Positions 1 through 35,865 of a stretch of DNA of 40,925 bases are shown piece after piece. Positions within the stretch are counted from its first letter, which is position 1; the number at the start of each line of letters is the position of its first letter. The notes beneath the pieces are model-generated. The model saw only the letters and a list, made by a program, of their open reading frames with translations. It was not told the DNA's origin and ran no database searches. The stretch covers positions 1 through 40,925 of IMG/VR virus record IMGVR_UViG_2671180437_000016; one strand, 5' to 3'. A program made the position numbers and the translations under genes. This DNA is from a virus (lineage: Duplodnaviria > Heunggongvirae > Uroviricota > Caudoviricetes).

Positions 1-1251
1 GTGCTTACCGATACAAAATTAAAGAACCTCAAGCCACAGGACAAACTGTACAAAGTTTCCGATCGTGACGGGCTGTATGTAGCTGTGCTTACGTCAGGTA
101 CGGTCTCGTTTCGCTATGACTACCGTATCAACGGTCGCCGCGAAACACTGGTAATCGGGCAGTATGGGCGTGACGGTATCAGCCTGGCAGAAGCGCGAGA
201 AGAACTGATTGCTGCAAAGAAGCTGCTTAAAGCAGGCCAGTCGCCGGCTGCGGCTAAACGTGACGGTATCAAAAAGATTCGTGGTGCCGAGACGTTTGCG
301 GTACATACCGACAGTTATATGAAACACGTCATCCTGGCTGACAGTACCCGCGCAATGAAGCAGGCGGTGATCGACCGTGACATACTTCCGGTTCTTGGCA
401 ACAAAATGATGGCTGAAATTACCACATCGATGGTTCGTGATTTGTGTGACCGGATTGTCGAACGCGGTGGTCGGGCAACAGCAGTACAGGCCAGGGAGAT
501 CATCAGCAGCGTATACCGTCACGCCAATGACCGTGGTCATGGTTTGTTTAATCCTGCGGCTGACATTAAACCTTCGTCTATCGCCATATTTAAACCACGA
601 GAGCGAACACTGACACCAGAAGAAATTGGCCTGTTCTTCCGCATGCTGGATGCCATTGGTGCTATGGGCACTATGAAAATGGCTTTAAAGCTGGTGCTTA
701 TCACTATGGTTCGTAAAGGCGAATTCACCAATGCAACGTGGGATGAAATAGATTTTAAAAAATGGACATGGACAATTCCTTCAGACCGCATGAAGGGAAG
801 CCGGGCGCACGTTATTTACCTGCCTAAACAGGCACAGGATATATTGGTTGGGTTGCAGATGTGCGCAGGTGGAAGTGAATATCTGGTTCCTGGTCGTTAC
901 AATTTCCGGAAGCCATTATCTAATGCCGCGCTGAACTCTCTGATCGACAGAACGGTGAAAATAATAAATGAAGATGGTGAGCATATTCAGGACTTCACCG
1001 TACACGATATGCGCCGTACAGCAAGTACGTTGTTGCATGAGGCTGGTTATCCTTCAGACTGGATTGAAAAGGCTCTGGCACATGAGCAGAAAGGTGTGCG
1101 CGCCGTATATAACAAAGCGGAATACGCCAGACAGCGCGCCTACATGTTGCAGCAGTGGGCCGATATGATTGATTCCTGGATTAACGGGGAGCATACGGAT
1201 CTGATTCCGTTCTCCCCGTCGAAGTTTGAGAAGTGGATGGCGGGGGAATAA
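1..1251 (+). CDS. int: Tyrosine recombinase / phage integrase (P4-type); N-terminus may be clipped by window start
   Basis: 416-aa ORF; N-terminal 'LTDTKLKNLKPQDKLYKVSDRDGLY' arm-binding-like region, C-terminal 'HDMRRTASTLLHEAGY...VRAVY' catalytic region typical of tyrosine integrases; GTG at position 1. Confidence 0.9.
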   Translation: MLTDTKLKNLKPQDKLYKVSDRDGLYVAVLTSGTVSFRYDYRINGRRETLVIGQYGRDGISLAEAREELIAAKKLLKAGQSPAAAKRDGIKKIRGAETFAVHTDSYMKHVILADSTRAMKQAVIDRDILPVLGNKMMAEITTSMVRDLCDRIVERGGRATAVQAREIISSVYRHANDRGHGLFNPAADIKPSSIAIFKPRERTLTPEEIGLFFRMLDAIGAMGTMKMALKLVLITMVRKGEFTNATWDEIDFKKWTWTIPSDRMKGSRAHVIYLPKQAQDILVGLQMCAGGSEYLVPGRYNFRKPLSNAALNSLIDRTVKIINEDGEHIQDFTVHDMRRTASTLLHEAGYPSDWIEKALAHEQKGVRAVYNKAEYARQRAYMLQQWADMIDSWINGEHTDLIPFSPSKFEKWMAGE

Positions 1252-1254
1252 CGT

Positions 1255-1449
1255 TTAATAGTTCTGCTGATTTTCTTCCATCTCTGCTTCTGCTGCCAGT
1301 GATTCAATTTTGTTTTCGAATATTGCTGACAGTGTTGCAAATTCAGCATCAGTGACAGCGGGAATTGGAACAAACCTGATCCCGCTGTGTGCAAGCATGT
1401 TTGCAGTTTCAAGGCATTTTCTTAAATCTGCTGGTGATGCCCTGTTCAT
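1255..1449 (-). CDS. Small acidic hypothetical protein (64 aa), translationally coupled to methyltransferase
   Basis: ATG at 1449-1447 overlaps methylase stop (ATGA overlap); internal start of 104-aa track ORF 1255..1569; no recognisable domain. Confidence 0.3.
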   Translation of the reverse strand: MNRASPADLRKCLETANMLAHSGIRFVPIPAVTDAEFATLSAIFENKIESLAAEAEMEENQQNY

Positions 1450-5344: not shown

Positions 5345-5929
5345 TTATTGTTTGCTTTTTTCGTTCTGGTTGATGACAAATTCAATGTAACTTTCGATCT
5401 TTGCTTTCTCGGTTTCGGGTAACAATGCGTAGCGCGAGCGGTCATAGTTGATAGTCGCAGGGTCGTGCGGGTGAATCAGTAATTCATAGCCGTGACGCCC
5501 GAATGCGGATGCAACATTCTCCAGGGTGGAAATGGAAACGCTGACCTCATTGTTTAACAGGCGACTGATTGTCACCTGGGCGACGCCGGATGCGCGGTGA
5601 AGTTTTCCCTGCGTTGAAAGGTCGCGGCTTTCGCTCATCCAGCGTTCCAGGTTGTGAGCCGCCAGCTGACCAATGTCGCTTGGGCCGACAGGCTGAAAAC
5701 CTTCCTGAGAAAGCGAGCGATCGATATCAAGCCAGTTACGGGGTTTATTGGCGGCAGCTTCAATTTTTCGCGCAACCTGGTCGCCGATAACCTTCTTGCC
5801 AAGAGCCCAGCGGTTTACCAGATTTGCCTGAGTTCCAAGTTTTTCTGCCATCCGCGTCTGAACACCATTGAATTCACGGTCGATCAAGTCGTTGAGATTT
5901 TGCCTGCGGACGTCCTGGATACTTTTCAT
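5345..5929 (-). CDS. Prophage repressor (CI-like, two HTH regions, no recognisable S24 autocleavage domain)
   Basis: 194 aa, divergent from Cro-like gene across an operator-rich spacer; HTH-like segments 'MAEKLGTQANLVNRWALGKK' and 'ASGVAQVTISRLLNNEVSVSISTLENVA'; no Ala-Gly/Ser...Lys peptidase motif seen. Confidence 0.7.
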   Translation of the reverse strand: MKSIQDVRRQNLNDLIDREFNGVQTRMAEKLGTQANLVNRWALGKKVIGDQVARKIEAAANKPRNWLDIDRSLSQEGFQPVGPSDIGQLAAHNLERWMSESRDLSTQGKLHRASGVAQVTISRLLNNEVSVSISTLENVASAFGRHGYELLIHPHDPATINYDRSRYALLPETEKAKIESYIEFVINQNEKSKQ

Positions 5930-8315: not shown

Positions 8316-8330
8316 TTACCTGACAGGTAA
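8316..8330. promoter_or_regulatory. Operator-like palindrome TTACC-TGACA-GGTAA
   Basis: Perfect TTACC-N5-GGTAA in spacer upstream of DUF1064 gene. Confidence 0.55.
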
Positions 8331-15603: not shown

Positions 15604-15680
15604 TGGCGTGGCATGCAGGATTCGAACCTGCGACCAACCGCTTAGAAGGCGGTTGCTCTGTCCAACTGAGCTAATGCCAC
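15604..15680 (-). tRNA. tRNA-Arg (anticodon UCU)
   Basis: 77-nt cloverleaf read on minus strand: acceptor GTGGCAT/ATGCCAC, D-arm GCTC...GAGC, anticodon stem ACCGC/GCGGT with loop CTTCTAA (anticodon TCT), T-arm GCAGG-TTCGAAT-CCTGC, discriminator G + CCA. Confidence 0.85.
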
Positions 15681-29611: not shown

Positions 29612-32086
29612 ATGAGACAGGAATGTATACAAGCGGTCCAGCAGGCGGCGCAGCGCACGTTAACGGCGCGAGAAATACAGAACATTGAAGACCGCATTTA
29701 TCGAAATATGCGCTCTATTGCTCGTGATGACCCGATGTCGTGGAGACAACTTTCCGAATCAGAGCGGCTATATCGTGCAGCACAATTGGCATCTGAAGAA
29801 TTACAGCGAGAAGCGGCATTAAATAAACGTCGTGTGGCCCTCACTATAGCCGCACGTCAGAGATTGGATAAATTTATCAATAGCTATCAAGGGGCTGATG
29901 GGAAACTTGGCGCTCTTAACCGTACTATTGCTTTTAATGCAGACGGTAAATCGAATTTCCTCTCTGTTGAGTCCAGAACAAAAGCCACTCGTGATTATGC
30001 ATTGAGTCAATTGCAAGAGGCATTTGAAGCAGTTGATCCTCGCTTTTTTGGCCTGTTTGAAGATGAAGCTGGCGTGCGTGACCTGGTATATGAAATGCGA
30101 GGGCAAAATACTGGCAATGCTAAAGCAAGAAAAGGTGCTAAGGCGTGGAGAGAAGTGACAGATCTACTGCGCCGCCGGTTTAATGATGCTGGTGGGGACA
30201 TTGGCTATCTCGAAAACTGGGGGATCCCTCAACATCATTCTATGGAAAAGGTTGGGGCGGTATCAAAGGATAAGTGGGTTAGCGATGTTATAGGTAAGCT
30301 GGATCGCAAATATTATATCCGAGCCGATGGACAACTGATGAACGATGCCGAGTTGTCTGCATTTCTTGGAGAGGCTTATAACACGATCGCTACTGGTGGG
30401 CTGAATAAGCTTACTGATACCGGAATGCGAATTTCCGGCGCACGTGCTAACCGTGGTAATGCATCACGACAGATACATTTCAAAGATGCAGATTCCTATC
30501 TGCAATATCAGCAACTTTATGGCGATCGCTCTCTATGGGAAATCATGGTCGGTCACCTGGAAGGTATCAGTAAAGATATTGCACTGGTGGAAACATATGG
30601 CCCAAACCCCGATCATGTTTTCCGCTCTCTTCTTGATCAGGTGAAGGCAGAAACGGCAACAGCTAACCCGAGCAAAACCGGTAAAGTCGAGCGGCTGGCG
30701 AACAACACAGAGAATCTGTACAACTTTATTTCCGGAAAGACACAGCCTGTAGCGAATCCGCACATCGCGCGATGGTCTGACAATATCCGCAACTGGCTGG
30801 TTGCCAGCAGACTCGGATCCGCGTTGCTGTCATCGTTCTCTGATCTTGGAACCATGTATCTGTCTGCGAAGGTTACCAACCTTCCAATGAACCAGTTATT
30901 TCGCAACCAGCTTGAAGCTATGGACCCAACGAACCGTACTGAGCTTGCGCGGGCGCGCCGCGCTGGCCTGGCGATGGAATCTCTACTTGGCAGCGTTAAC
31001 CGCTGGGCGATGGATAATATGGGGCCGTCTGTGTCTCGTTGGGCGGCAACGGCGGTAATGCGTGCCAGTGGGCTTACAGCATGGTCAGATGCGCACAAGC
31101 GCGCCTATGGCGTAACCATGATGGGAAGCCTGGGAGAAGTAGTGTCACGGACACCAGACCTTCGTAGCCTCGATGACTCTGATTTTCGTATCCTGAAAAG
31201 TAAAGGGATTACTGACACAGACTGGAGCGTATGGAAGCTGGCGCAACAGGAGGACTGGGGGAACGGTAATAATACGATGCTGACACCGGAAAGCATTATG
31301 CGTATCCCTGATTCAGCAGTTAAACATCTTGGTGAGCCTGAACGCGTGAAATTTGAGGCAATGCGTAAACTGCTCGGTGCCGTAACTGAAGAAGTTGATA
31401 TGGCTGTTATTACACCGGGCGCACGTGAGCAGATGTTCGTAGGGTCTGGTCTTCAGCGTGGAACATGGAAAGGTGAATTAACGAGAAGTGTTTTCCTGTT
31501 TAAATCGTTCCCTATCTCGGTTGTTATGCGTCACTGGTCACGCGCTATGGGTATGCCGTCTGCTGGTGGGCGTGCAGCATATATAGCAACGTTTTTAGCA
31601 AGCACAACCATGCTTGGTGCTCTTTCCATGCAGATTACTGATCTTATTAATGGGAGAAATCCAAAGGAAATGACCGGTGACCACATGGTTAAATTCTGGA
31701 TAAATGCATTTTTAAAAGGTGGCGGGGCTGGGTTGTACGGTGATTTTCTTTTCTCTGACCACACTAGGTACGGGAGCGGCGCGCTGGCGTCGATGCTTGG
31801 CCCGGTAGCTGGTCTGGTTGATGACGTAGTGAAGATAGCTCAGGGCATACCGCTAAATGCTGTGGAAGGGAAGAGTGAGCAGACTGGTGGTGATCTGGTT
31901 AAGCTGGGGAAGGGGCTGATGCCAGGTGCGAATCTCTGGTACTTGAAGGCGGCTCTCGATCATATGATCTTTAACCAGATGCAGGAGTATTTTTCACCAG
32001 GCTATTTGCGTAAAATGGAGCAACGTTCGAAGAAAGAGTTTAACCAGACATACTGGTGGCGACCTCAGGATGTTACTCCGCAATAA
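29612..32086 (+). CDS. Internal virion/ejection protein (large)
   Basis: 824 aa; last gene of contiguous virion block. Confidence 0.5.
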   Translation: MRQECIQAVQQAAQRTLTAREIQNIEDRIYRNMRSIARDDPMSWRQLSESERLYRAAQLASEELQREAALNKRRVALTIAARQRLDKFINSYQGADGKLGALNRTIAFNADGKSNFLSVESRTKATRDYALSQLQEAFEAVDPRFFGLFEDEAGVRDLVYEMRGQNTGNAKARKGAKAWREVTDLLRRRFNDAGGDIGYLENWGIPQHHSMEKVGAVSKDKWVSDVIGKLDRKYYIRADGQLMNDAELSAFLGEAYNTIATGGLNKLTDTGMRISGARANRGNASRQIHFKDADSYLQYQQLYGDRSLWEIMVGHLEGISKDIALVETYGPNPDHVFRSLLDQVKAETATANPSKTGKVERLANNTENLYNFISGKTQPVANPHIARWSDNIRNWLVASRLGSALLSSFSDLGTMYLSAKVTNLPMNQLFRNQLEAMDPTNRTELARARRAGLAMESLLGSVNRWAMDNMGPSVSRWAATAVMRASGLTAWSDAHKRAYGVTMMGSLGEVVSRTPDLRSLDDSDFRILKSKGITDTDWSVWKLAQQEDWGNGNNTMLTPESIMRIPDSAVKHLGEPERVKFEAMRKLLGAVTEEVDMAVITPGAREQMFVGSGLQRGTWKGELTRSVFLFKSFPISVVMRHWSRAMGMPSAGGRAAYIATFLASTTMLGALSMQITDLINGRNPKEMTGDHMVKFWINAFLKGGGAGLYGDFLFSDHTRYGSGALASMLGPVAGLVDDVVKIAQGIPLNAVEGKSEQTGGDLVKLGKGLMPGANLWYLKAALDHMIFNQMQEYFSPGYLRKMEQRSKKEFNQTYWWRPQDVTPQ

Positions 32087-32095
32087 GGAACAACA

Positions 32096-32509
32096 ATGAA
32101 GGAATTATTGCTGTTATCGGTATTTTTGATATCCGCTTGCTCGACATCCTATGATGTTTATGACGGTGTTGATAAGGCATATTGCGACAAAGTTAAAATG
32201 GATTTTTCTCTTGCCAAGACGGCGAAGGATAGTTGTATTGATCACTACGTCAAGACTTATACCAAGCCAGCATCATCGGCATCTGATATTGCTGAAGGTG
32301 CTGTGTTTGAGTGTAACAAGGTGATATCCATCGCAGCGAGTTCTTCATACGATGCTGCTGTATGTGCAATGGCTGAAAGAAACGGCATGTCAGTGCAAAA
32401 AGTTAATAGCATGATAAACAGTAATGACGAAGCCAAAATAAGAACTGATATCAGCTCGGTGAAAAAAGATGCCATGAACAGAGTTGTAAAATATCAGTCA
32501 TCTTTATAA
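32096..32509 (+). CDS. Predicted lipoprotein (cargo; candidate superinfection-exclusion factor)
   Basis: 137 aa; signal peptide with lipobox 'LISAC'; SD AAGGAA; immediately after ejection-protein genes; followed by palindrome and terminator. Confidence 0.6.
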   Translation: MKELLLLSVFLISACSTSYDVYDGVDKAYCDKVKMDFSLAKTAKDSCIDHYVKTYTKPASSASDIAEGAVFECNKVISIAASSSYDAAVCAMAERNGMSVQKVNSMINSNDEAKIRTDISSVKKDAMNRVVKYQSSL

Positions 32510-32525: not shown

Positions 32526-32549
32526 GGCCGCAAAAGCGGCCTTGTTTTT
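32526..32549 (+). terminator. Rho-independent terminator after lipoprotein gene
   Basis: Stem GGCCGC/GCGGCC, loop AAAA, followed by TTGTTTTT. Confidence 0.6.
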
Positions 32550-32709
32550 AACGAATGCCACCGCCGCCAGGGCGGGAATCTGCAGAACGCCCACCGCAGC
32601 GGGAGCCGTCAGCGGCAGTATCGCTGTCGTGCTGGCAACGACCGGCAAAGGCCTGAGTTGAAGCTACCAGAGACAACAAAACGAACAGTGCAGCAAATGC
32701 TTTTTTCAT
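32548..32709 (-). CDS. Small secreted Cys-containing peptide (53 aa precursor), hypothetical
   Basis: Internal ATG (32709) of 77-aa track ORF; 'MKKAFAALFVLLSLVASTQAFA' signal peptide then about 31-aa Gly/Arg/Asp-rich region with two Cys; weak SD. Confidence 0.3.
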   Translation of the reverse strand: MKKAFAALFVLLSLVASTQAFAGRCQHDSDTAADGSRCGGRSADSRPGGGGIR

Positions 32710-32781
32710 TGTGAAATTTCCATCTATAAGCCACCTCAATGTGGCGTCAATGAGTGTAGCACTGACTTTTGTTTCGTCCAC

Positions 32782-32807: not shown

Positions 32808-33440
32808 TTAATGCAGTTTATCTTTGCTTATAACCAGTAGTCTGTGGGTATGCACATCTTTATCACTGCCCCAACAGAAATCAGCCCACTGGCTATAGAA
32901 ATCATCCCATGATGTCATGAAGCTAAGAGGTCTATCTTCTTCAGAGCCATCTGAAACGTATACATTATATCCTGGGGTGTTTATAGCCCAAGAAATCATT
33001 CTTTCCCAGAATCTTCTCCCATCGATTGTTTGTTGCTCATCAGATACAACGATCGCATATTGCTCTAGGAAGAACTGAAAAAAAATCTGAGGCAAACCAT
33101 GAACAGCACGGTCATGAATAACATTAGGCGTACGCCATACCATGATCTGCGTACATGTTCTTTTGGCTTCGACGATATCTTCCCGAAAGATTAACTTAAC
33201 CGCATACACCGTTTCTGGAGTATCGCTGGTAGTAATCATTCTGTAATGATCGCCATTACAAGATTTTACAAGGCGATAACCATAAGGTGTTGTGAATCCC
33301 GGAAGAACGAAATCAACCACACCTTTCGCTAAGTAGCTTTCGGTGTGACTAGTGTTCTTCTCAGACATGTTCAGTTTTCTGTCGAAATCTGCTTCTGGGA
33401 TAATGTATGGCATCGCTTTTCTTGTTGTATTTGTTTTCAT
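32808..33440 (-). CDS. Orphan cargo protein of unknown function (210 aa)
   Basis: Strong SD GGGAGGA; AT-rich gene with own operator (33500-33514) and own terminator; no motif recognised. Confidence 0.6.
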   Translation of the reverse strand: MKTNTTRKAMPYIIPEADFDRKLNMSEKNTSHTESYLAKGVVDFVLPGFTTPYGYRLVKSCNGDHYRMITTSDTPETVYAVKLIFREDIVEAKRTCTQIMVWRTPNVIHDRAVHGLPQIFFQFFLEQYAIVVSDEQQTIDGRRFWERMISWAINTPGYNVYVSDGSEEDRPLSFMTSWDDFYSQWADFCWGSDKDVHTHRLLVISKDKLH

Positions 33441-33499: not shown

Positions 33500-33514
33500 T
33501 TACCCGTAAGGTAA
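33500..33514. promoter_or_regulatory. Operator-like palindrome TTACC-CGTAA-GGTAA
   Basis: Identical 15-mer to 5273-5287; about 60 nt upstream of orphan gene start. Confidence 0.55.
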
Positions 33515-33580
33515 TATTACGCGAATCTACATCACATCGCCAATGATTATTTTAAAGGCACATCCCTGTGCCGCCGCCCG

Positions 33581-34267
33581 TCAGAAGAACCCTGCTTTGT
33601 CGTTGATATACTCCGCGTGGGTCTGGATATCACGCAGGCATTTGCTCACACCGACGATGTAGCAGAACATGGTGGTCAGCTCCGCCGCCGCGCCCGATAC
33701 GTCGTGCCCGTCTTCCTGTAACTGGTTCAGCAGATTCATCAGCAGTGAGTTCTCCGTCAGGCCGAGAACACCAGACGGCGAGTGAATCAGACTGCGGTAG
33801 CCGGGCTTTAGTGGGGCGCTGTAGGTTTTGTTCTCTATCTTCATTGCCTGCATCACTGCTGATGCTGTGGCGTTGGCTACCTGGTCGGCAACCATCTTTA
33901 TGCGTTCTTCTTGCGGGAGCGAGTTTTTAATGTAACTTCCGGTGCGGCGGATCTGAGGAAGAACCTCACCTGTAACCCATTTACGAAAGCGGTATGGGAT
34001 AGTGCCTGGTGTCACCGCATCGCGGCAGCGGAGGATCAGTGTGTAGAGGCCTGACTCGTTGATAATATTGGTTTCGCCTTGACGGCCTAAGTTAAATTTA
34101 GCCCTTTCATCATCATCAAGAGATTTTATTGACATAGTGGGGTTTGTCAGTTGAAGAGCTTTAATAACGTCTTTGGCAACAAACCAAGGATTTCCATCAA
34201 TAACAATGGCTCGAATGGTTGCTTCTGATTCAAAATGAAAAACAGATGGGGTTACGTTAGCAGTCAT
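33581..34267 (-). CDS. Antirepressor (BRO-N domain N-terminus, Ant-like C-terminus)
   Basis: Start at MTANVTPSVF (ATG 34267, SD AAAGGTGA); 'VFHFESEATIRAIVIDGNPWFVAKDVIKALQ' is a BRO-N signature; C-terminus homologous to 35413..35670 product. Confidence 0.7.
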   Translation of the reverse strand: MTANVTPSVFHFESEATIRAIVIDGNPWFVAKDVIKALQLTNPTMSIKSLDDDERAKFNLGRQGETNIINESGLYTLILRCRDAVTPGTIPYRFRKWVTGEVLPQIRRTGSYIKNSLPQEERIKMVADQVANATASAVMQAMKIENKTYSAPLKPGYRSLIHSPSGVLGLTENSLLMNLLNQLQEDGHDVSGAAAELTTMFCYIVGVSKCLRDIQTHAEYINDKAGFF

Positions 34268-34533
34268 AGTGATCACCTTTGTAGTTAGGTTAATCACCAC
34301 TACCGACGCCAATCGGTTGGTGGTGAACTGTGCAGGGTTGGCGTAACCGGCTACAAAGGACCCGGCGCACCTTTCGGTGCCCCCACACAGCCCACCATAG
34401 AATAGGTGCGCTTTACACATAAAAAAACCGCTTATGCGGCATATGTGCCCCTGTAGTAATCCGGGACGCCAATCCCGGCACTGGATTTTGCCAGTACCCG
34501 ATTACTATGGCACAAGAGGAGTGCAATGTAAAT

Positions 34534-34548
34534 TTACCGCAAAGGTAA
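34534..34548. promoter_or_regulatory. Operator-like palindrome TTACC-GCAAA-GGTAA
   Basis: Perfect site in 394-bp divergent spacer; followed by CAACC-N6-GGTTG inverted repeat (34575-34590). Confidence 0.55.
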
Positions 34549-34626
34549 TGATAAACGCGAAGAAATATTAAAATCAACCGTATTTGGTTGATTGCGTTTA
34601 ACGCTTGATCACCTGAAAGCAAGATA

Positions 34627-34641
34627 TTACCTTTAAGGTAA
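34627..34641. promoter_or_regulatory. Operator-like palindrome TTACC-TTTAA-GGTAA
   Basis: Perfect site 20 nt upstream of ATG 34662. Confidence 0.55.
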
Positions 34642-34661
34642 TGTTATTGTGAGGAAAAGCA

Positions 34662-35390
34662 ATGGAAGTTTTCTGGATAGTTGTTGGTGTGGTTGCGGTG
34701 ATTATTTACGTTATCAACCAGAACAAGACTAAGATCTCTGATCGTACGGTCGTTAATCATAACAAAACGATAAAGACCGAAGATGGGGAGATAACGATTA
34801 ATCGTACACAGGTTATAGAACACACCTCTACTCAGTTTCAAAAAACTGGAGGTAATGCGCCTAATATTTCCGCACCTCCTGCTTATGATAGTGCGGTAAT
34901 CCAGACATATTATAAACAGCAGGAGTTAGCAAAAGAGAGGCAACTGATTCAGCCAAAGCCGTTTACAGCTGAGCTTCCACCTGGAGTGTCAACGCGTCCG
35001 GCATATCATGGAAGATTCCCTGGTGATGACATATCGTCTCAGTCATCTAAAAAAGCACCTCAGGCAGTATCAGAGCCAGCAAGAATACCTTCTGTATCGC
35101 CGCCAAAAGAAGAATCAGCTAACAGAGTTTCAAGTGGTAGCAAGCAGTGCTTGCGATGCAGAATAAACCTACCATATGAAAAATTCAGGAAATCGTCAAA
35201 AAATCCAGATGGATTGACTAAGTGGTGTGCAAGGTGTCTCGATGGCCCAAAGAATACACGCCATATGAAGTGGTGCCCAATTTGTAATGTCCGCAGAAAA
35301 CGAACAAGCTTTTACCCTAATAATCAAAATGCGGATGGCTTAATGGCATGGTGCAAAACGTGCTGGGACGAGCACAAAGCGAAACGATAG
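34662..35390 (+). CDS. Membrane-anchored protein with four C-terminal CxxC motifs (zinc-ribbon-like), unknown function
   Basis: 242 aa; N-terminal TM helix 'VFWIVVGVVAVIIYVI'; C-terminal 'CLRC','WCARC','WCPIC','WCKTC' with internal repeat 'DGL(T/M)(K/A)WC'; SD GAGGAA. Confidence 0.6.
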   Translation: MEVFWIVVGVVAVIIYVINQNKTKISDRTVVNHNKTIKTEDGEITINRTQVIEHTSTQFQKTGGNAPNISAPPAYDSAVIQTYYKQQELAKERQLIQPKPFTAELPPGVSTRPAYHGRFPGDDISSQSSKKAPQAVSEPARIPSVSPPKEESANRVSSGSKQCLRCRINLPYEKFRKSSKNPDGLTKWCARCLDGPKNTRHMKWCPICNVRRKRTSFYPNNQNADGLMAWCKTCWDEHKAKR

Positions 35391-35414
35391 GCCGCTCTTG
35401 CGGCCTTTAAATTT
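35390..35414. terminator. Bidirectional terminator between convergent genes
   Basis: Stem GGCCGC/GCGGCC, loop TCTT, followed by TTTAAATTT. Confidence 0.5.
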
Positions 35415-35670
35415 ACCGGGTTTGTTTTCGTAATTGTTCGGCACAATAGTCGAGATGTGTTTGCAGATCCTGCATAGACATCTGTGAGCTGGTGACATAG
35501 TTAATCAGTGCAGTCAGTTCGGCAAGTGGGCCATCGACATTAAATCCATCCTTATCGAGATCCCGGAGTAATTTCATCAAGTGCGATCCCTCCACCAGTG
35601 ACCTGACGCCTCCCGGCGTGTGAATCCTTTCGGTAAATCCGTCTTCCAGTGGATAGTGATACTGCTGCAT
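35413..35670 (-). CDS. Small antirepressor-like protein under a LexA box (candidate SOS-induced antirepressor)
   Basis: 85 aa from ATG 35670 (SD GGAGAAG; track ORF uses TTG at 35688); 'RIHTPGGVRSLVEGSHLMKLLRDLDKDGFNVDGPLAELTALINYV...DLQTH' aligns with C-terminus of 33581..34267 product; LexA box 20 nt upstream. Confidence 0.6.
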   Translation of the reverse strand: MQQYHYPLEDGFTERIHTPGGVRSLVEGSHLMKLLRDLDKDGFNVDGPLAELTALINYVTSSQMSMQDLQTHLDYCAEQLRKQTR

Positions 35671-35689
35671 CTTATCTTCTCCATGCAAT

Positions 35690-35709
35690 AACTGTATATT
35701 TATACAGTA
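35690..35709. promoter_or_regulatory. LexA (SOS) box AACTGTATATTTATACAGTA
   Basis: CTGT-N8-ACAG with AT-rich spacer, 18/20 match to E. coli consensus TACTGTATATATATACAGTA; only such site found in the window. Confidence 0.75.
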
Positions 35710-35744: not shown

Positions 35745-35759
35745 AATTACCCGAAAGGT
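35745..35759. promoter_or_regulatory. Operator-like palindrome TTACC-CGAAA-GGTAA upstream of tail fibre gene
   Basis: Perfect site; followed at 35793 by CATATGTGGTTTTT motif. Confidence 0.55.
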
Positions 35760-35865
35760 AATATCTATTCGTATTCACAGTCTTTCTATCCATATGTGGT
35801 TTTTCAGGTAATAAAATAACCAGATATGCGGCGCAACGGGTGCTGCGACTATCTGGAGATTTAAC

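What the first reader, a model, noticed from the sequence alone, without database searches (positions are those of the whole stretch)
33581..35688. Paralogous antirepressor pair flanking a membrane zinc-ribbon gene
The full-length BRO-N/Ant gene (33581..34267) and the short Ant-C-like gene (35413..35670) are both on the minus strand and bracket a plus-strand gene (34662..35390) for a protein with one N-terminal TM helix and four CxxC motifs with an internal repeat. Each of the three has its own regulatory site (palindromic operator or LexA box). A membrane-tethered zinc-ribbon protein between two antirepressors is not a textbook arrangement; it could be an anti-sigma-like signal transducer, an exclusion protein or a regulator of Ant activity.
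Basis: partly seen in the sequence, partly recalled or inferred. Interest (0 to 1): 0.65.

Follow-up and report, generated by a model that had tools for sequence, protein, structure and literature searches.

The report
Antirepressor hot spot with mobile zinc-ribbon gene
In this epsilon15-like prophage, two already-understood antirepressor genes flank an inserted, self-contained gene for an uncharacterised membrane-anchored zinc-ribbon protein, which in other phages sits right behind the repressor gene and is most likely a phage-competition (exclusion) factor, not a part of the antirepressor machinery.

Summary
The Bro-N antirepressor (33581..34267, -), the 242-aa membrane/zinc-ribbon gene (34662..35390, +) and the 85-aa gene (35413..35670, -) are all present, and each has its own control site.

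Both antirepressors belong to known systems. The 85-aa protein is the ortholog of Salmonella phage SPC32H Ant (PDB 5D50, E 4e-47) and keeps its LexA box. The Bro-N protein carries the same Ant module at its C-terminus and lies behind isrK and C4 RNAs, as in Gifsy-1 and P1.

The palindrome TTACC-N5-GGTAA occurs 11 times (0.04 expected). It occupies the same places in SPC32H, so it is inferred to be the Rep operator.

The zinc-ribbon gene is an 858-bp cassette with its own promoter, operator and terminator. phiV10, ZX5 and SPC32H lack it.

Its family (PHROG 6762) has no characterised member. The architecture is an N-terminal TM helix, a variable linker, and two basic zinc ribbons with no catalytic histidine.

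Homologs change position and strand within the same podophage region. In four very divergent lambdoid phages they lie directly downstream of cI.

The most likely role is exclusion or defence at the membrane, but this is untested. Interest is moderate to low.

The parts
5345..5929 (-). rep: non-cleavable phage repressor, the target of the antirepressors
   Evidence: Homolog of SPC32H Rep, PDB 5D50_A, E 3.5e-42. Pfam finds HTH_3 but no Peptidase_S24.
33500..33514 (.). TTACC-N5-GGTAA operator upstream of the 210-aa accessory gene (32808..33440, -)
33581..34267 (-). Bro-N / Ant-C fusion antirepressor (228 aa)
   Evidence: Pfam Bro-N 5e-20. PHROG 130 'anti-repressor Ant' 8e-57. Residues 147-223 match SPC32H Ant, E 1e-13. 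Overexpressing the ZX5 counterpart (the Bro-N gene at the aligned position) cut lysogens about 1000-fold (PMC9782041).
34268..34420 (-). Leader ORF, in frame with Ant and overlapping C4 (the position of Gifsy-1 orf45)
   Evidence: Translation has no stop before the Ant ATG. Analogy to orf45-anrP coupling (PMC4825925).
34316..34402 (-). C4 antisense RNA
   Evidence: Rfam RF01695, 79.5 bits against a gathering score of 45.
34421..34497 (-). isrK RNA with its terminator (34427..34440)
   Evidence: Rfam RF01394, 73.5 bits against a gathering score of 50. Terminator scan.
34504..34532 (-). Promoter-like site for isrK-C4-ant (TTTACA-17-CATAGT, with TG)
   Evidence: Consensus match only.
34534..34548 (.). 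Operator abutting the -35 of the isrK promoter
   Evidence: Retained in ZX5, whose homology runs to 34554; phiV10 homology ends at 34538, within the site.
34555..35412 (+). 858-bp inserted cassette carrying the zinc-ribbon gene
   Evidence: In ZX5 this stretch is replaced by 25 bp; in phiV10, 34539..35412 is replaced by 41 bp. Present in 133 of 5426 complete E. coli genomes.
34572..34593 (-). Hairpin plus T-run (terminator-like) at the left edge of the cassette
34605..34633 (+). Inferred zinc-ribbon promoter: -35 TTGATC, 17-bp spacer, -10 TACCTT inside the operator
   Evidence: Read from the sequence. The same geometry is conserved in Citrobacter/Enterobacter-type, Serratia and Pectobacterium homolog loci.
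34627..34641 (.). Operator TTACCTTTAAGGTAA over the -10 of the zinc-ribbon promoter
34662..35390 (+). 242-aa protein: membrane anchor, variable linker, tandem zinc ribbons (PHROG 6762)
   Evidence: Intact in 51 of 51 fully covered viral loci; dN/dS 0.12-0.39.
35389..35406 (+). GC-rich terminator hairpin closing the cassette, convergent with ant
35413..35670 (-). ant: SPC32H-type small antirepressor (85 aa)
   Evidence: PDB 5D50_E, E 4e-47. PHROG 450.
35692..35707 (.). LexA box CTGTATATTTATACAG
   Evidence: Conserved in SPC32H, phiV10 and ZX5.
35747..35761 (.). Operator in the ant / tail-fiber intergenic region
   Evidence: SPC32H has a site at the homologous place.

Best explanation
The region is the accessory, immI-like hot spot of an epsilon15-like (Uetakevirus) prophage. 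It lies between the 824-aa virion-protein gene and the tail-fiber gene and holds three independent transcription units.

1. **ant (85 aa).** This is the SOS-inducible antirepressor known from SPC32H. LexA keeps it off. After DNA damage it is made and removes the non-cleavable Rep from its operators.
2. **The Bro-N protein.** It carries the same Rep-binding Ant module at its C-terminus. It is expressed from a Rep-operator-flanked promoter through an isrK / C4 / leader-ORF riboregulatory cascade, like Gifsy-1 isrK-orf45-anrP and P1 c4-icd-ant. It is a second route to Rep inactivation with a different input.
3. **The 242-aa gene.** It is not part of either circuit. It is a mobile cassette with its own promoter, operator and terminator that landed between the other two units.

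The 242-aa protein is anchored in the inner membrane by residues 3-20, with the N-terminus outside. A flexible linker holds a strongly basic pair of Cys4 zinc ribbons in the cytoplasm. These ribbons are of the type that decorates His-Me (HNH / EndoVII / PacI / Hpy99I) nucleases, but they lack the catalytic histidine. That makes it a likely nucleic-acid binder at the membrane.

In this phage its -10 lies inside a Rep operator, so it should be made when Rep is absent or inactivated. In distant lambdoid phages it is co-transcribed with cI.

Inferred function, untested: a phage-versus-phage competition factor that acts at the inner membrane on incoming nucleic acid or on the entry machinery.
For: **Shown**
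- The window is an epsilon15-like phage: it matches TL-2011b, phiV10 and ZX5.
- ant and rep are homologs of the two chains of PDB 5D50. Rep has no S24 domain.
- The LexA box and the intergenic region are conserved with SPC32H.
- C4 and isrK score well above Rfam thresholds.
- The Ant C-terminus is homologous to ant.
- Overexpressing the ZX5 Bro-N counterpart lowers lysogeny.
- The isrK-orf45-anrP mechanism is described in PMC4825925.
- The operator occurs 11 times here and 10 times in SPC32H, at homologous places that include the rep-cro intergenic region and PL. Pairs 62 bp apart flank promoters.
- The cassette boundaries are defined against phiV10 and ZX5. SPC32H lacks the gene.
- The promoter/operator geometry is conserved across genera. 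In Providencia a different palindrome sits at the same place.
- The gene changes position and strand within the hot spot across about 30 divergent loci.
- cI-to-ZnR gene pairs with 17-35 bp gaps occur in four phages whose cI proteins are only 21-34% identical. One further case lies downstream of an Arc/Mnt-like gene. One is a moron among tail genes.
- The C-terminal domain has net charge +9 to +17 in all 28 members. There are 3-6 K/R residues after the TM helix, against only 'ME' before it.
- The gene is under purifying selection.

**Inferred**
- Rep binds the palindrome.
- The C-terminal domain faces the cytoplasm.
- The domain binds nucleic acid.
- The protein has an exclusion role.
Against: - No experiment or annotation exists for any family member. 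PADLOC, NCBIfam and Pfam give nothing above threshold.
- A Rep operator over the -10 predicts silence in a stable lysogen here. That fits a classical lysogen-expressed exclusion gene poorly, and it differs from the cI-operon placement in lambdoids.
- Recurrent linkage to repressor and antirepressor genes could instead mean a role in the switch itself.
- The papers that would confirm the Rep operator sequence (Kim & Ryu 2013; Kim et al. 2016) could not be read.
- Promoter assignments are consensus readings. The scan tool did not call the zinc-ribbon promoter.
Confidence: 0.55

Rival explanations
1. The zinc-ribbon protein is a modulator of the lysis-lysogeny switch. It might hold Ant, Rep or the prophage DNA at the membrane and so tune induction. 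This is the first reader's 'regulator of Ant' idea, and is loosely comparable to lambda RexA/RexB assisting the switch.
For: - The gene is persistently linked to immunity genes. It lies beside ant in many epsilon15-like loci, directly after cI in four very divergent lambdoids, and after an Arc/Mnt-like repressor.
- In the window its operator lies 93 bp (about 9 helical turns) from the isrK operator, so a Rep tetramer could in principle bridge both.
- Stc1/LIM-like tandem zinc fingers can be protein adaptors (weak Pfam Stc1 hit).
- Genes just beside cI, such as rexA, have been proposed to act in induction as well as exclusion (PMC12315714).
Against: - The switch works without it. SPC32H, phiV10 and ZX5 lack the gene, and in TL-2011b it is annotated only as a misc_feature; a protein-to-DNA search there matched only residues 19-242.
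- The lambdoid hosts have S24-cleavable cI, and no SPC32H-type ant was seen near the gene.
- Other copies lie in tail clusters or on an island with no antirepressor nearby.
- Position and strand relative to ant are not conserved.
Confidence: 0.17
2. It is an early lytic-cycle helper. It would either tether phage DNA to the membrane (like phi29 p16.7) or take over a host process, and would be made only once Rep is gone.
For: - The operator over the -10 predicts expression only on infection or induction.
- The architecture of N-terminal TM helix, linker and C-terminal basic nucleic-acid-binding domain parallels p16.7 (own knowledge).
Against: - The gene is dispensable in close relatives.
- In lambdoids it sits in the cI operon, which is expressed when the phage is not replicating.
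- It has no homology to p16.7 or to known takeover proteins.
Confidence: 0.13
3. It is an anti-sigma-like transmembrane signal transducer.
For: Only the combination of a TM helix with cysteine motifs.
Against: - No anti-sigma or zf-HC2 Pfam hit.
- Only about 2 residues lie outside the membrane, so there is no sensor domain.
- No sigma factor gene lies in the neighbourhood.
- The Cys4 ribbons resemble the zinc modules of nucleases, not ZAS domains.
Confidence: 0.02
4. It is an active membrane-bound His-Me (HNH / EndoVII-type) nuclease that degrades incoming DNA.
For: - PHROG hits to EndoVII/HNH families.
- Some repeat-containing relatives are fused to HNH domains.
Against: - The matches cover only the accessory zinc ribbons, not the catalytic core.
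- The window protein has no Pfam HNH or Endonuclease_7 hit.
- The conserved motif is D-G, not D-H. No invariant His or Asn lies in the catalytic positions.
Confidence: 0.03

Closest known systems
SPC32H Rep/Ant/LexA antirepression switch (Kim & Ryu 2013; Kim et al. 2016; PDB 5D50, 5D4Z)
   Same: - The 85-aa protein and the 194-aa repressor are clear homologs of the two crystallised chains.
- The gene position is the same, just upstream of and divergent from the tail-fiber/tailspike gene.
- The LexA box and a TTACC-N5-GGTAA site are conserved in the ant-to-tail-gene intergenic region.
   Different: - SPC32H has only ant in this region.
- The window adds a Bro-N/Ant-C fusion with isrK/C4, the zinc-ribbon cassette, and three further small accessory genes.
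- The mechanistic details of Rep/Ant come from my own knowledge and from secondary citations. The primary papers were not readable.
Gifsy-1 isrK-orf45-anrP module and P1/P7 immI (c4-icd-ant)
   Same: An isrK RNA with its own terminator, a C4-family RNA overlapping a short leader ORF, then a Bro-N antirepressor, all on one strand (PMC4825925; the same RNA pair lies next to a Bro-N gene in APSE phages).
   Different: - Here the leader ORF runs in frame into Ant without a stop codon.
- The Ant C-terminus is the SPC32H-type module.
- A Rep operator abuts the isrK promoter.
- Base-pairing between the RNAs and the leader was not analysed here.
Phage N15 dual antirepressor design (LexA-controlled AntC plus small-RNA-controlled AntA/B)
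   Same: Two antirepressor routes with different inputs, SOS and riboregulation, acting on one non-cleavable repressor. This is own knowledge and was not tested here.
   Different: No sequence comparison was made. N15 is a linear-plasmid siphovirus.
Lysogen-side passengers of immunity loci: lambda rexA/rexB (cI operon), P22 sieA (next to mnt), HK97 gp15 (tail-gene moron)
   Same: - Positional analogy. Family members sit directly after cI (4 phages), after an mnt-like gene, and among tail genes.
- The protein is membrane-located and the gene is accessory.
   Different: - No sequence or fold similarity to any of these proteins.
- In the window the gene is predicted to be Rep-repressed, not lysogen-expressed.
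- No phenotype is known.
Accessory Cys4 zinc ribbons of His-Me finger nucleases (T4 EndoVII-type and HNH phage proteins, PacI, Hpy99I); Pfam Stc1 (PF12898)
   Same: - The repeat pattern is CxxC-(~16)-F...DG.T.WCxxC.
- PHROG 1035, 2633 and 2255 match.
- Multi-repeat relatives pass the Stc1 threshold.
   Different: - There is no nuclease core and no catalytic histidine.
- The window protein itself is below the Stc1 gathering score (21.0 against 24.8 bits).
- The combination with an N-terminal membrane anchor distinguishes it from these relatives.

Membership tests
SPC32H-type small antirepressor (Ant) | Sequence homology to the crystallised Ant over its full length | tested here: met
   E 4e-47; residues 2-84 align to 3-85 of 5D50_E.
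SPC32H-type small antirepressor (Ant) | LexA box at the ant promoter | tested here: met
   CTGTATATTTATACAG at 35692..35707, 22 bp upstream of the ATG. Conserved with SPC32H. LexA binding itself was not tested.
SPC32H-type small antirepressor (Ant) | Cognate repressor of the Rep type without an autocleavage domain | tested here: met
   Rep homolog, E 3.5e-42. Pfam finds HTH_3 only, no Peptidase_S24.
SPC32H-type small antirepressor (Ant) | Physical binding to Rep and release of Rep from DNA | not testable with these tools
   Needs biochemistry.
isrK / C4-riboregulated Bro-N antirepressor (Gifsy-1 anrP, P1 immI type) | isrK and C4-family RNAs upstream on the same strand | tested here: met
   Rfam, 73.5 and 79.5 bits, both above the gathering scores.
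isrK / C4-riboregulated Bro-N antirepressor (Gifsy-1 anrP, P1 immI type) | Short leader ORF coupled to the antirepressor | tested here: inconclusive
   An ORF from 34420 overlaps C4 but continues in frame into Ant, not as a separate ORF.
isrK / C4-riboregulated Bro-N antirepressor (Gifsy-1 anrP, P1 immI type) | Bro-N domain protein with antirepressor activity | tested here: met
   The Bro-N domain is present. Activity is known only for the ZX5 counterpart, from the literature.
Moron (Juhala/Hendrix sense) | Extra gene between genes that are adjacent in related phages | tested here: met
   Absent from phiV10, ZX5 and SPC32H.
Moron (Juhala/Hendrix sense) | Own promoter and terminator | tested here: met
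   Conserved -35/-10 upstream. Terminator at 35389..35406. Sequence evidence only.
Moron (Juhala/Hendrix sense) | Expressed from the repressed prophage | tested here: inconclusive
   The operator over the -10 argues against this here. The cI-operon position in distant homologs argues for it there.
Superinfection-exclusion membrane proteins (SieA, HK97 gp15, T4 Imm) | Homology to a known exclusion or defence protein | tested here: not met
   No PADLOC hit. PHROG 6762 has no assigned function. No fold match.
Superinfection-exclusion membrane proteins (SieA, HK97 gp15, T4 Imm) | Inner-membrane location | tested here: inconclusive
   Predicted TM helix at residues 3-20 (pLDDT 85-90 over residues 1-20) and positive-inside bias. 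This is a prediction only.
Superinfection-exclusion membrane proteins (SieA, HK97 gp15, T4 Imm) | Blocks infection by other phages | not testable with these tools
   Needs plating and DNA-entry assays.
ZAS-type anti-sigma factor | HxxxCxxC zinc-binding anti-sigma domain, extracytoplasmic sensor domain, and a partner sigma factor gene | tested here: not met
   No such Pfam hit. The Cys4 motifs are C-terminal and only 2 residues lie outside the membrane. No sigma factor gene is adjacent.
His-Me finger (HNH / EndoVII) nuclease | Beta-beta-alpha-metal core with a catalytic histidine | tested here: not met
   No HNH or Endonuclease_7 Pfam hit. The invariant motif is D183-G184, with no conserved His or Asn in the catalytic positions. 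Matches are confined to the accessory ribbons.
Pfam Stc1 domain (PF12898) | Score at or above the gathering threshold | tested here: not met
   21.0 bits against a cut-off of 24.8. Multi-repeat relatives do pass.

The most novel reading that the evidence does not exclude
The 242-aa protein would found a new, widespread family of immunity-linked phage proteins. The family is defined by a single-pass inner-membrane anchor carrying a nuclease-dead, basic tandem zinc-ribbon DNA-binding head. It has been kept next to the master repressor (cI operon) or its antagonist (ant locus) across phages whose repressors are only 21-34% identical. On this reading it either excludes incoming phage DNA by a mechanism not yet described, or it ties the repressor/antirepressor switch to the membrane.
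Probability: 0.3. Interest if true: 0.6.

Novelty: new variant of a known kind. Interest (0 to 1): 0.36.

Why it matters
The two antirepressors add nothing new in kind. They do show clearly that one Rep-binding module (SPC32H Ant) is used twice in one phage, under two different inputs: LexA/SOS and isrK/C4 riboregulation.

The useful lead is the zinc-ribbon family. It is conserved, under purifying selection and present in about 2.5% of complete E. coli genomes. It has about 50 full-length cluster representatives at 50% identity and no known function. It recurs exactly where phages keep exclusion and defence genes.

It is a cheap, well-defined candidate for a new superinfection-exclusion or switch-modulating protein. 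The inferred genome-wide operator set (16 sites here, 10 in SPC32H) also gives a testable regulatory map for epsilon15-like phages.

Tried and rejected
- **Foldseek of the full AF2 model against PDB:** nothing below E 1. Most of the chain is disordered.
- **Profile search of PDB sequences:** only marginal PacI and 1V9W hits.
- **PADLOC and NCBIfam:** no hits for the zinc-ribbon protein or for the neighbouring accessory genes.
- **Genome-contig scan:** only 2 loci, both already known.
- **Primary SPC32H papers:** attempts by DOI and by PMC id failed. 'Rep binds TTACC-N5-GGTAA' therefore remains an inference from site positions.
- **Generic promoter scan:** it did not call the zinc-ribbon promoter or the ant promoter. 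The promoter was read by hand and supported by cross-genus conservation.
- **ATATGTGGTT as a late-promoter motif:** 6 matches against 2.5 expected, and 4 of 100 shuffles did as well. Not pursued.
- **Rejected ideas:** anti-sigma factor, active HNH nuclease, and an obligatory three-gene Ant/ZnR/Ant module.
- **One contig look-up (P0046):** it returned only a 799-bp contig with no context.
Full report
**What the window is**

The 3.1 kb around the finding matches Escherichia phages TL-2011b, phiV10 and vB_EcoP_ZX5 and many E. coli prophages at 92-96% identity. These are epsilon15-like podoviruses of the genus Uetakevirus.

The finding lies between an 824-aa virion-protein gene (29612..32086) and the tail-fiber gene (35866..). 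In Salmonella phage SPC32H the same interval holds only a small membrane-protein gene and ant.

**Check of the observation**

All three ORFs exist as described.

- The 228-aa protein has a Bro-N domain (E 5e-20).
- Its residues 147-224 are 40% identical to the 85-aa protein (E 1e-19).
- The 242-aa protein has four CxxC motifs in two repeats and an N-terminal hydrophobic helix.
- TTACC-N5-GGTAA occurs 11 times in the window against 0.04 expected. Four of those copies lie in this 2.3-kb region.
- A LexA-type box lies 22 bp upstream of the short gene.

Both score well above their Rfam thresholds.

**The short gene is a known antirepressor**

The 85-aa protein aligns over its whole length with chain E of PDB 5D50, the antirepressor of SPC32H (E 4e-47). 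The 194-aa product of 5345..5929 aligns with chain A, the repressor Rep (E 3.5e-42). Rep has an HTH domain but no S24 autocleavage domain.

The ant-to-tail-fiber intergenic region aligns with that of SPC32H and keeps the LexA box and one TTACC-N5-GGTAA site.

From my own knowledge of Kim & Ryu 2013 and Kim et al. 2016, and from secondary descriptions: Rep is not cleaved in the SOS response, LexA represses ant, and tetrameric Ant binds Rep and releases it from DNA. I could not open the primary papers.

**The Bro-N gene is a second, riboregulated antirepressor with the same Rep-binding module**

Residues 147-223 match SPC32H Ant directly (E 1e-13) and match PHROG 450, the family of the short protein.

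Upstream lie isrK with its terminator, then C4, which overlaps a leader ORF that runs in frame into Ant. This is the layout of Gifsy-1 isrK-orf45-anrP. There, read-through of the IsrK terminator gives an inactive mRNA, and short IsrK activates it through translation of orf45 (PMC4825925). It is also the layout of P1 c4-icd-ant. APSE phages carry the same RNA pair next to a Bro-N gene.

In ZX5, overexpressing the Bro-N gene at the aligned position (about 86% nucleotide identity to the window across this region) reduced lysogens from 10^9 to 10^6 (PMC9782041).

The 'paralogous pair' is thus one Rep-binding module deployed under two inputs. In TL-2011b a third, P22-type Ant carries a C-terminus 95.7% identical at the DNA level to that of the window's Ant. 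The module is evidently shuffled between different N-terminal domains.

**The palindrome is most likely the Rep operator**

Counting one mismatch, there are 16 sites against 1.4 expected. They lie in these places:

- in the rep-cro intergenic region (5985 and 6033);
- as pairs 62 bp apart that bracket a -35/-10 at the leftward early promoter (5211/5273) and at 8316/8378;
- ahead of the packaging, portal, tail-fiber and lysis blocks.

SPC32H has 10 exact copies at the homologous places. Paired sites fit a tetrameric Rep that engages palindromes with DNA-binding domains from different dimers. Binding itself is an inference.

**The zinc-ribbon gene is an inserted cassette**

Against ZX5, window 34555..35412 is replaced by 25 bp; against phiV10, 34539..35412 is replaced by 41 bp.

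The 858 bp contain, in order:

- a terminator-like hairpin facing ant (34572..34593);
- a -35 (TTGATC), a 17-bp spacer and a -10 (TACCTT) embedded in the operator at 34627..34641;
- a GAGGA ribosome-binding site;
- the gene;
- a GC-rich terminator at 35389..35406.

The same promoter/operator geometry precedes homologs that are only 44-63% identical, in Citrobacter/Enterobacter-type, Serratia and Pectobacterium phages. In a Providencia phage a different palindrome, TTAACC-N5-GGTTAA, sits at the same place.

Because the operator lies between the -35 and the ribosome-binding site, any protein bound there must repress. The gene should therefore be made when Rep is absent or inactivated.

The cassette is present in 133 of 5426 complete E. 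coli genomes. It is intact in all 51 fully covered viral contigs, and dN/dS is 0.12-0.39. In TL-2011b it is annotated only as a misc_feature, and a protein-to-DNA search there matched only residues 19-242.

**The protein**

The family is PHROG 6762, with no assigned function. A word-indexed search found 33 sequences, all from Enterobacterales. A full HMM scan found 1793 proteins that share the ribbon repeat, including roughly 50 full-length cluster representatives.

The alignment shows four parts:

- a conserved TM helix;
- a conserved segment predicted as a beta-hairpin at residues 26-55, with low confidence;
- a variable Pro/Ser-rich linker;
- two conserved ribbons with eight invariant cysteines.

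AF2 gives pLDDT >90 for residues 160-242. The flank after the TM helix holds 3-6 K/R residues, against only 'ME' before it. The C-terminal domain has net charge +9 to +17 in all 28 members. Together these argue for an N-out/C-in topology and for nucleic-acid binding.

Multi-repeat relatives are fused to HNH, helicase or HEAT domains.

**Genomic context of homologs**

In about 30 divergent viral loci the gene stays within the interval between the gp824-like gene and the tailspike gene of epsilon15-like podophages. Its position and strand change from locus to locus:

- after the Bro-N gene, on the ant strand (L071-L077);
- directly after ant (L079, L080, L088; Providencia);
- against the 824-aa gene (Serratia, Yersinia YeP5 and others).

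Outside this lineage, other copies show different contexts:

- One copy is a moron among siphovirus tail genes.
- One copy lies on a small integrated island in Buttiauxella.
- One copy lies 14 bp after an Arc/Mnt-like repressor gene in a P22-immI-like locus.
- Four copies lie 17-35 bp after a cI-type (HTH_3 + S24) repressor gene on the same strand. These are Aeromonas phage phiARM81mr and three metagenomic lambdoids. Their cI proteins are only 21-34% identical to each other, and their zinc-ribbon proteins 28-36%.

The position just after cI is where lambda keeps rexAB, and it is routinely read as co-transcription with cI (PMC12315714).

**Interpretation**

The adjacency of the zinc-ribbon gene to two antirepressors is best explained by insertion of a mobile accessory cassette into the phage's hot spot for such genes. 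It does not indicate a three-part machine.

For function, the following features point to a phage-competition role at the inner membrane: accessory status, a membrane anchor, a basic DNA-binding-type head, and placement in cI and mnt operons and in moron sites. I put this at about 35-40% within the overall model.

The main difficulty is the predicted Rep repression in this phage. That fits a factor used early in infection or after induction better than a lysogen-expressed one. The recurrent linkage to repressor and antirepressor genes keeps a switch-modulating role alive (about 17%). An early lytic helper is a further option (about 13%). Anti-sigma and active-nuclease readings are disfavoured.

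**Verdict**

The antirepressor pair is already explained by known systems. The zinc-ribbon gene is a real, conserved and uncharacterised accessory gene with suggestive context.

Overall interest is moderate to low (0.36), and novelty lies only in the zinc-ribbon family.

Noticed in passing
window 5211, 5273, 5985, 6033, 6370, 8316, 8378, 12376, 12394, 15249, 16003, 33500, 34534, 34627, 35747, 37728: There are 16 TTACC-N5-GGTAA sites (one mismatch allowed) spread over the genome. They lie in the rep-cro region and ahead of the early, packaging, portal, tail-fiber and lysis blocks. Two pairs 62 bp apart bracket promoters. SPC32H has 10 exact sites at homologous places. This suggests that a single repressor controls many dispersed promoters, as P1 C1 does.
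   Followed up: partly
window 34268..34420 (-): The leader ORF that overlaps the C4 RNA has no stop codon before the Ant ATG. A 279-aa long form of Ant is therefore possible, reminiscent of P1 Ant1/Ant2. In ZX5 the same stretch is annotated as 'ash family protein'.
   Followed up: partly
L001 (TL-2011b) 415..1359 and 1126..1382; window 33558..33814: TL-2011b carries an extra Arc plus P22-type Ant module. The 3' end of that Ant gene is 95.7% identical at the DNA level to the 3' end of the window's Bro-N Ant gene. The Rep-binding C-terminal module is evidently exchanged between different N-terminal domains.
   Followed up: partly
window 32096..32509 (+), 32548..32781 (-), 32808..33440 (-): Three further accessory genes lie in the same hot spot. 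One is a 137-aa protein with a lipoprotein-like N-terminus (PHROG 8691). One is a 77-aa protein matching PHROG 14503, 'membrane associated protein, moron'. One is a 210-aa protein (PHROG 1349, unknown function) with its own operator at 33500. None has a Pfam, NCBIfam or PADLOC assignment.
   Followed up: partly
L008 (Pectobacterium prophage) 4141, 5398, 5967, 10361: In this phage each accessory unit of the hot spot (the Bro-N gene, a hicA/hicB-like pair and the zinc-ribbon gene) is preceded by its own TTACC-N5-GGTAA site.
   Followed up: no
L071-L077, about 60-75 bp upstream of the zinc-ribbon ATG: A conserved palindrome, TTGTGACATGTCACA, sits just upstream of the -35 of the zinc-ribbon promoter in the Citrobacter/Enterobacter-type loci. 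Its role is unknown.
   Followed up: no
window 8363, 16060, 35792: The motif (A/T)TATGTGGTT lies 40-55 bp downstream of three operators, ahead of gene blocks. It is only weakly enriched: 6 matches with one mismatch against 2.5 expected.
   Followed up: partly
proteins P0048, P0087, P0094, P0103: The same zinc-ribbon repeat occurs up to 10 times per protein elsewhere. It is fused to HNH nuclease, SF1 helicase or HEAT-repeat domains, so it is a widely reused module.
   Followed up: partly
window 15607..15680 (-): A tRNA gene (Rfam, 73 bits). SPC32H has tRNA-Arg at the corresponding place.
   Followed up: no
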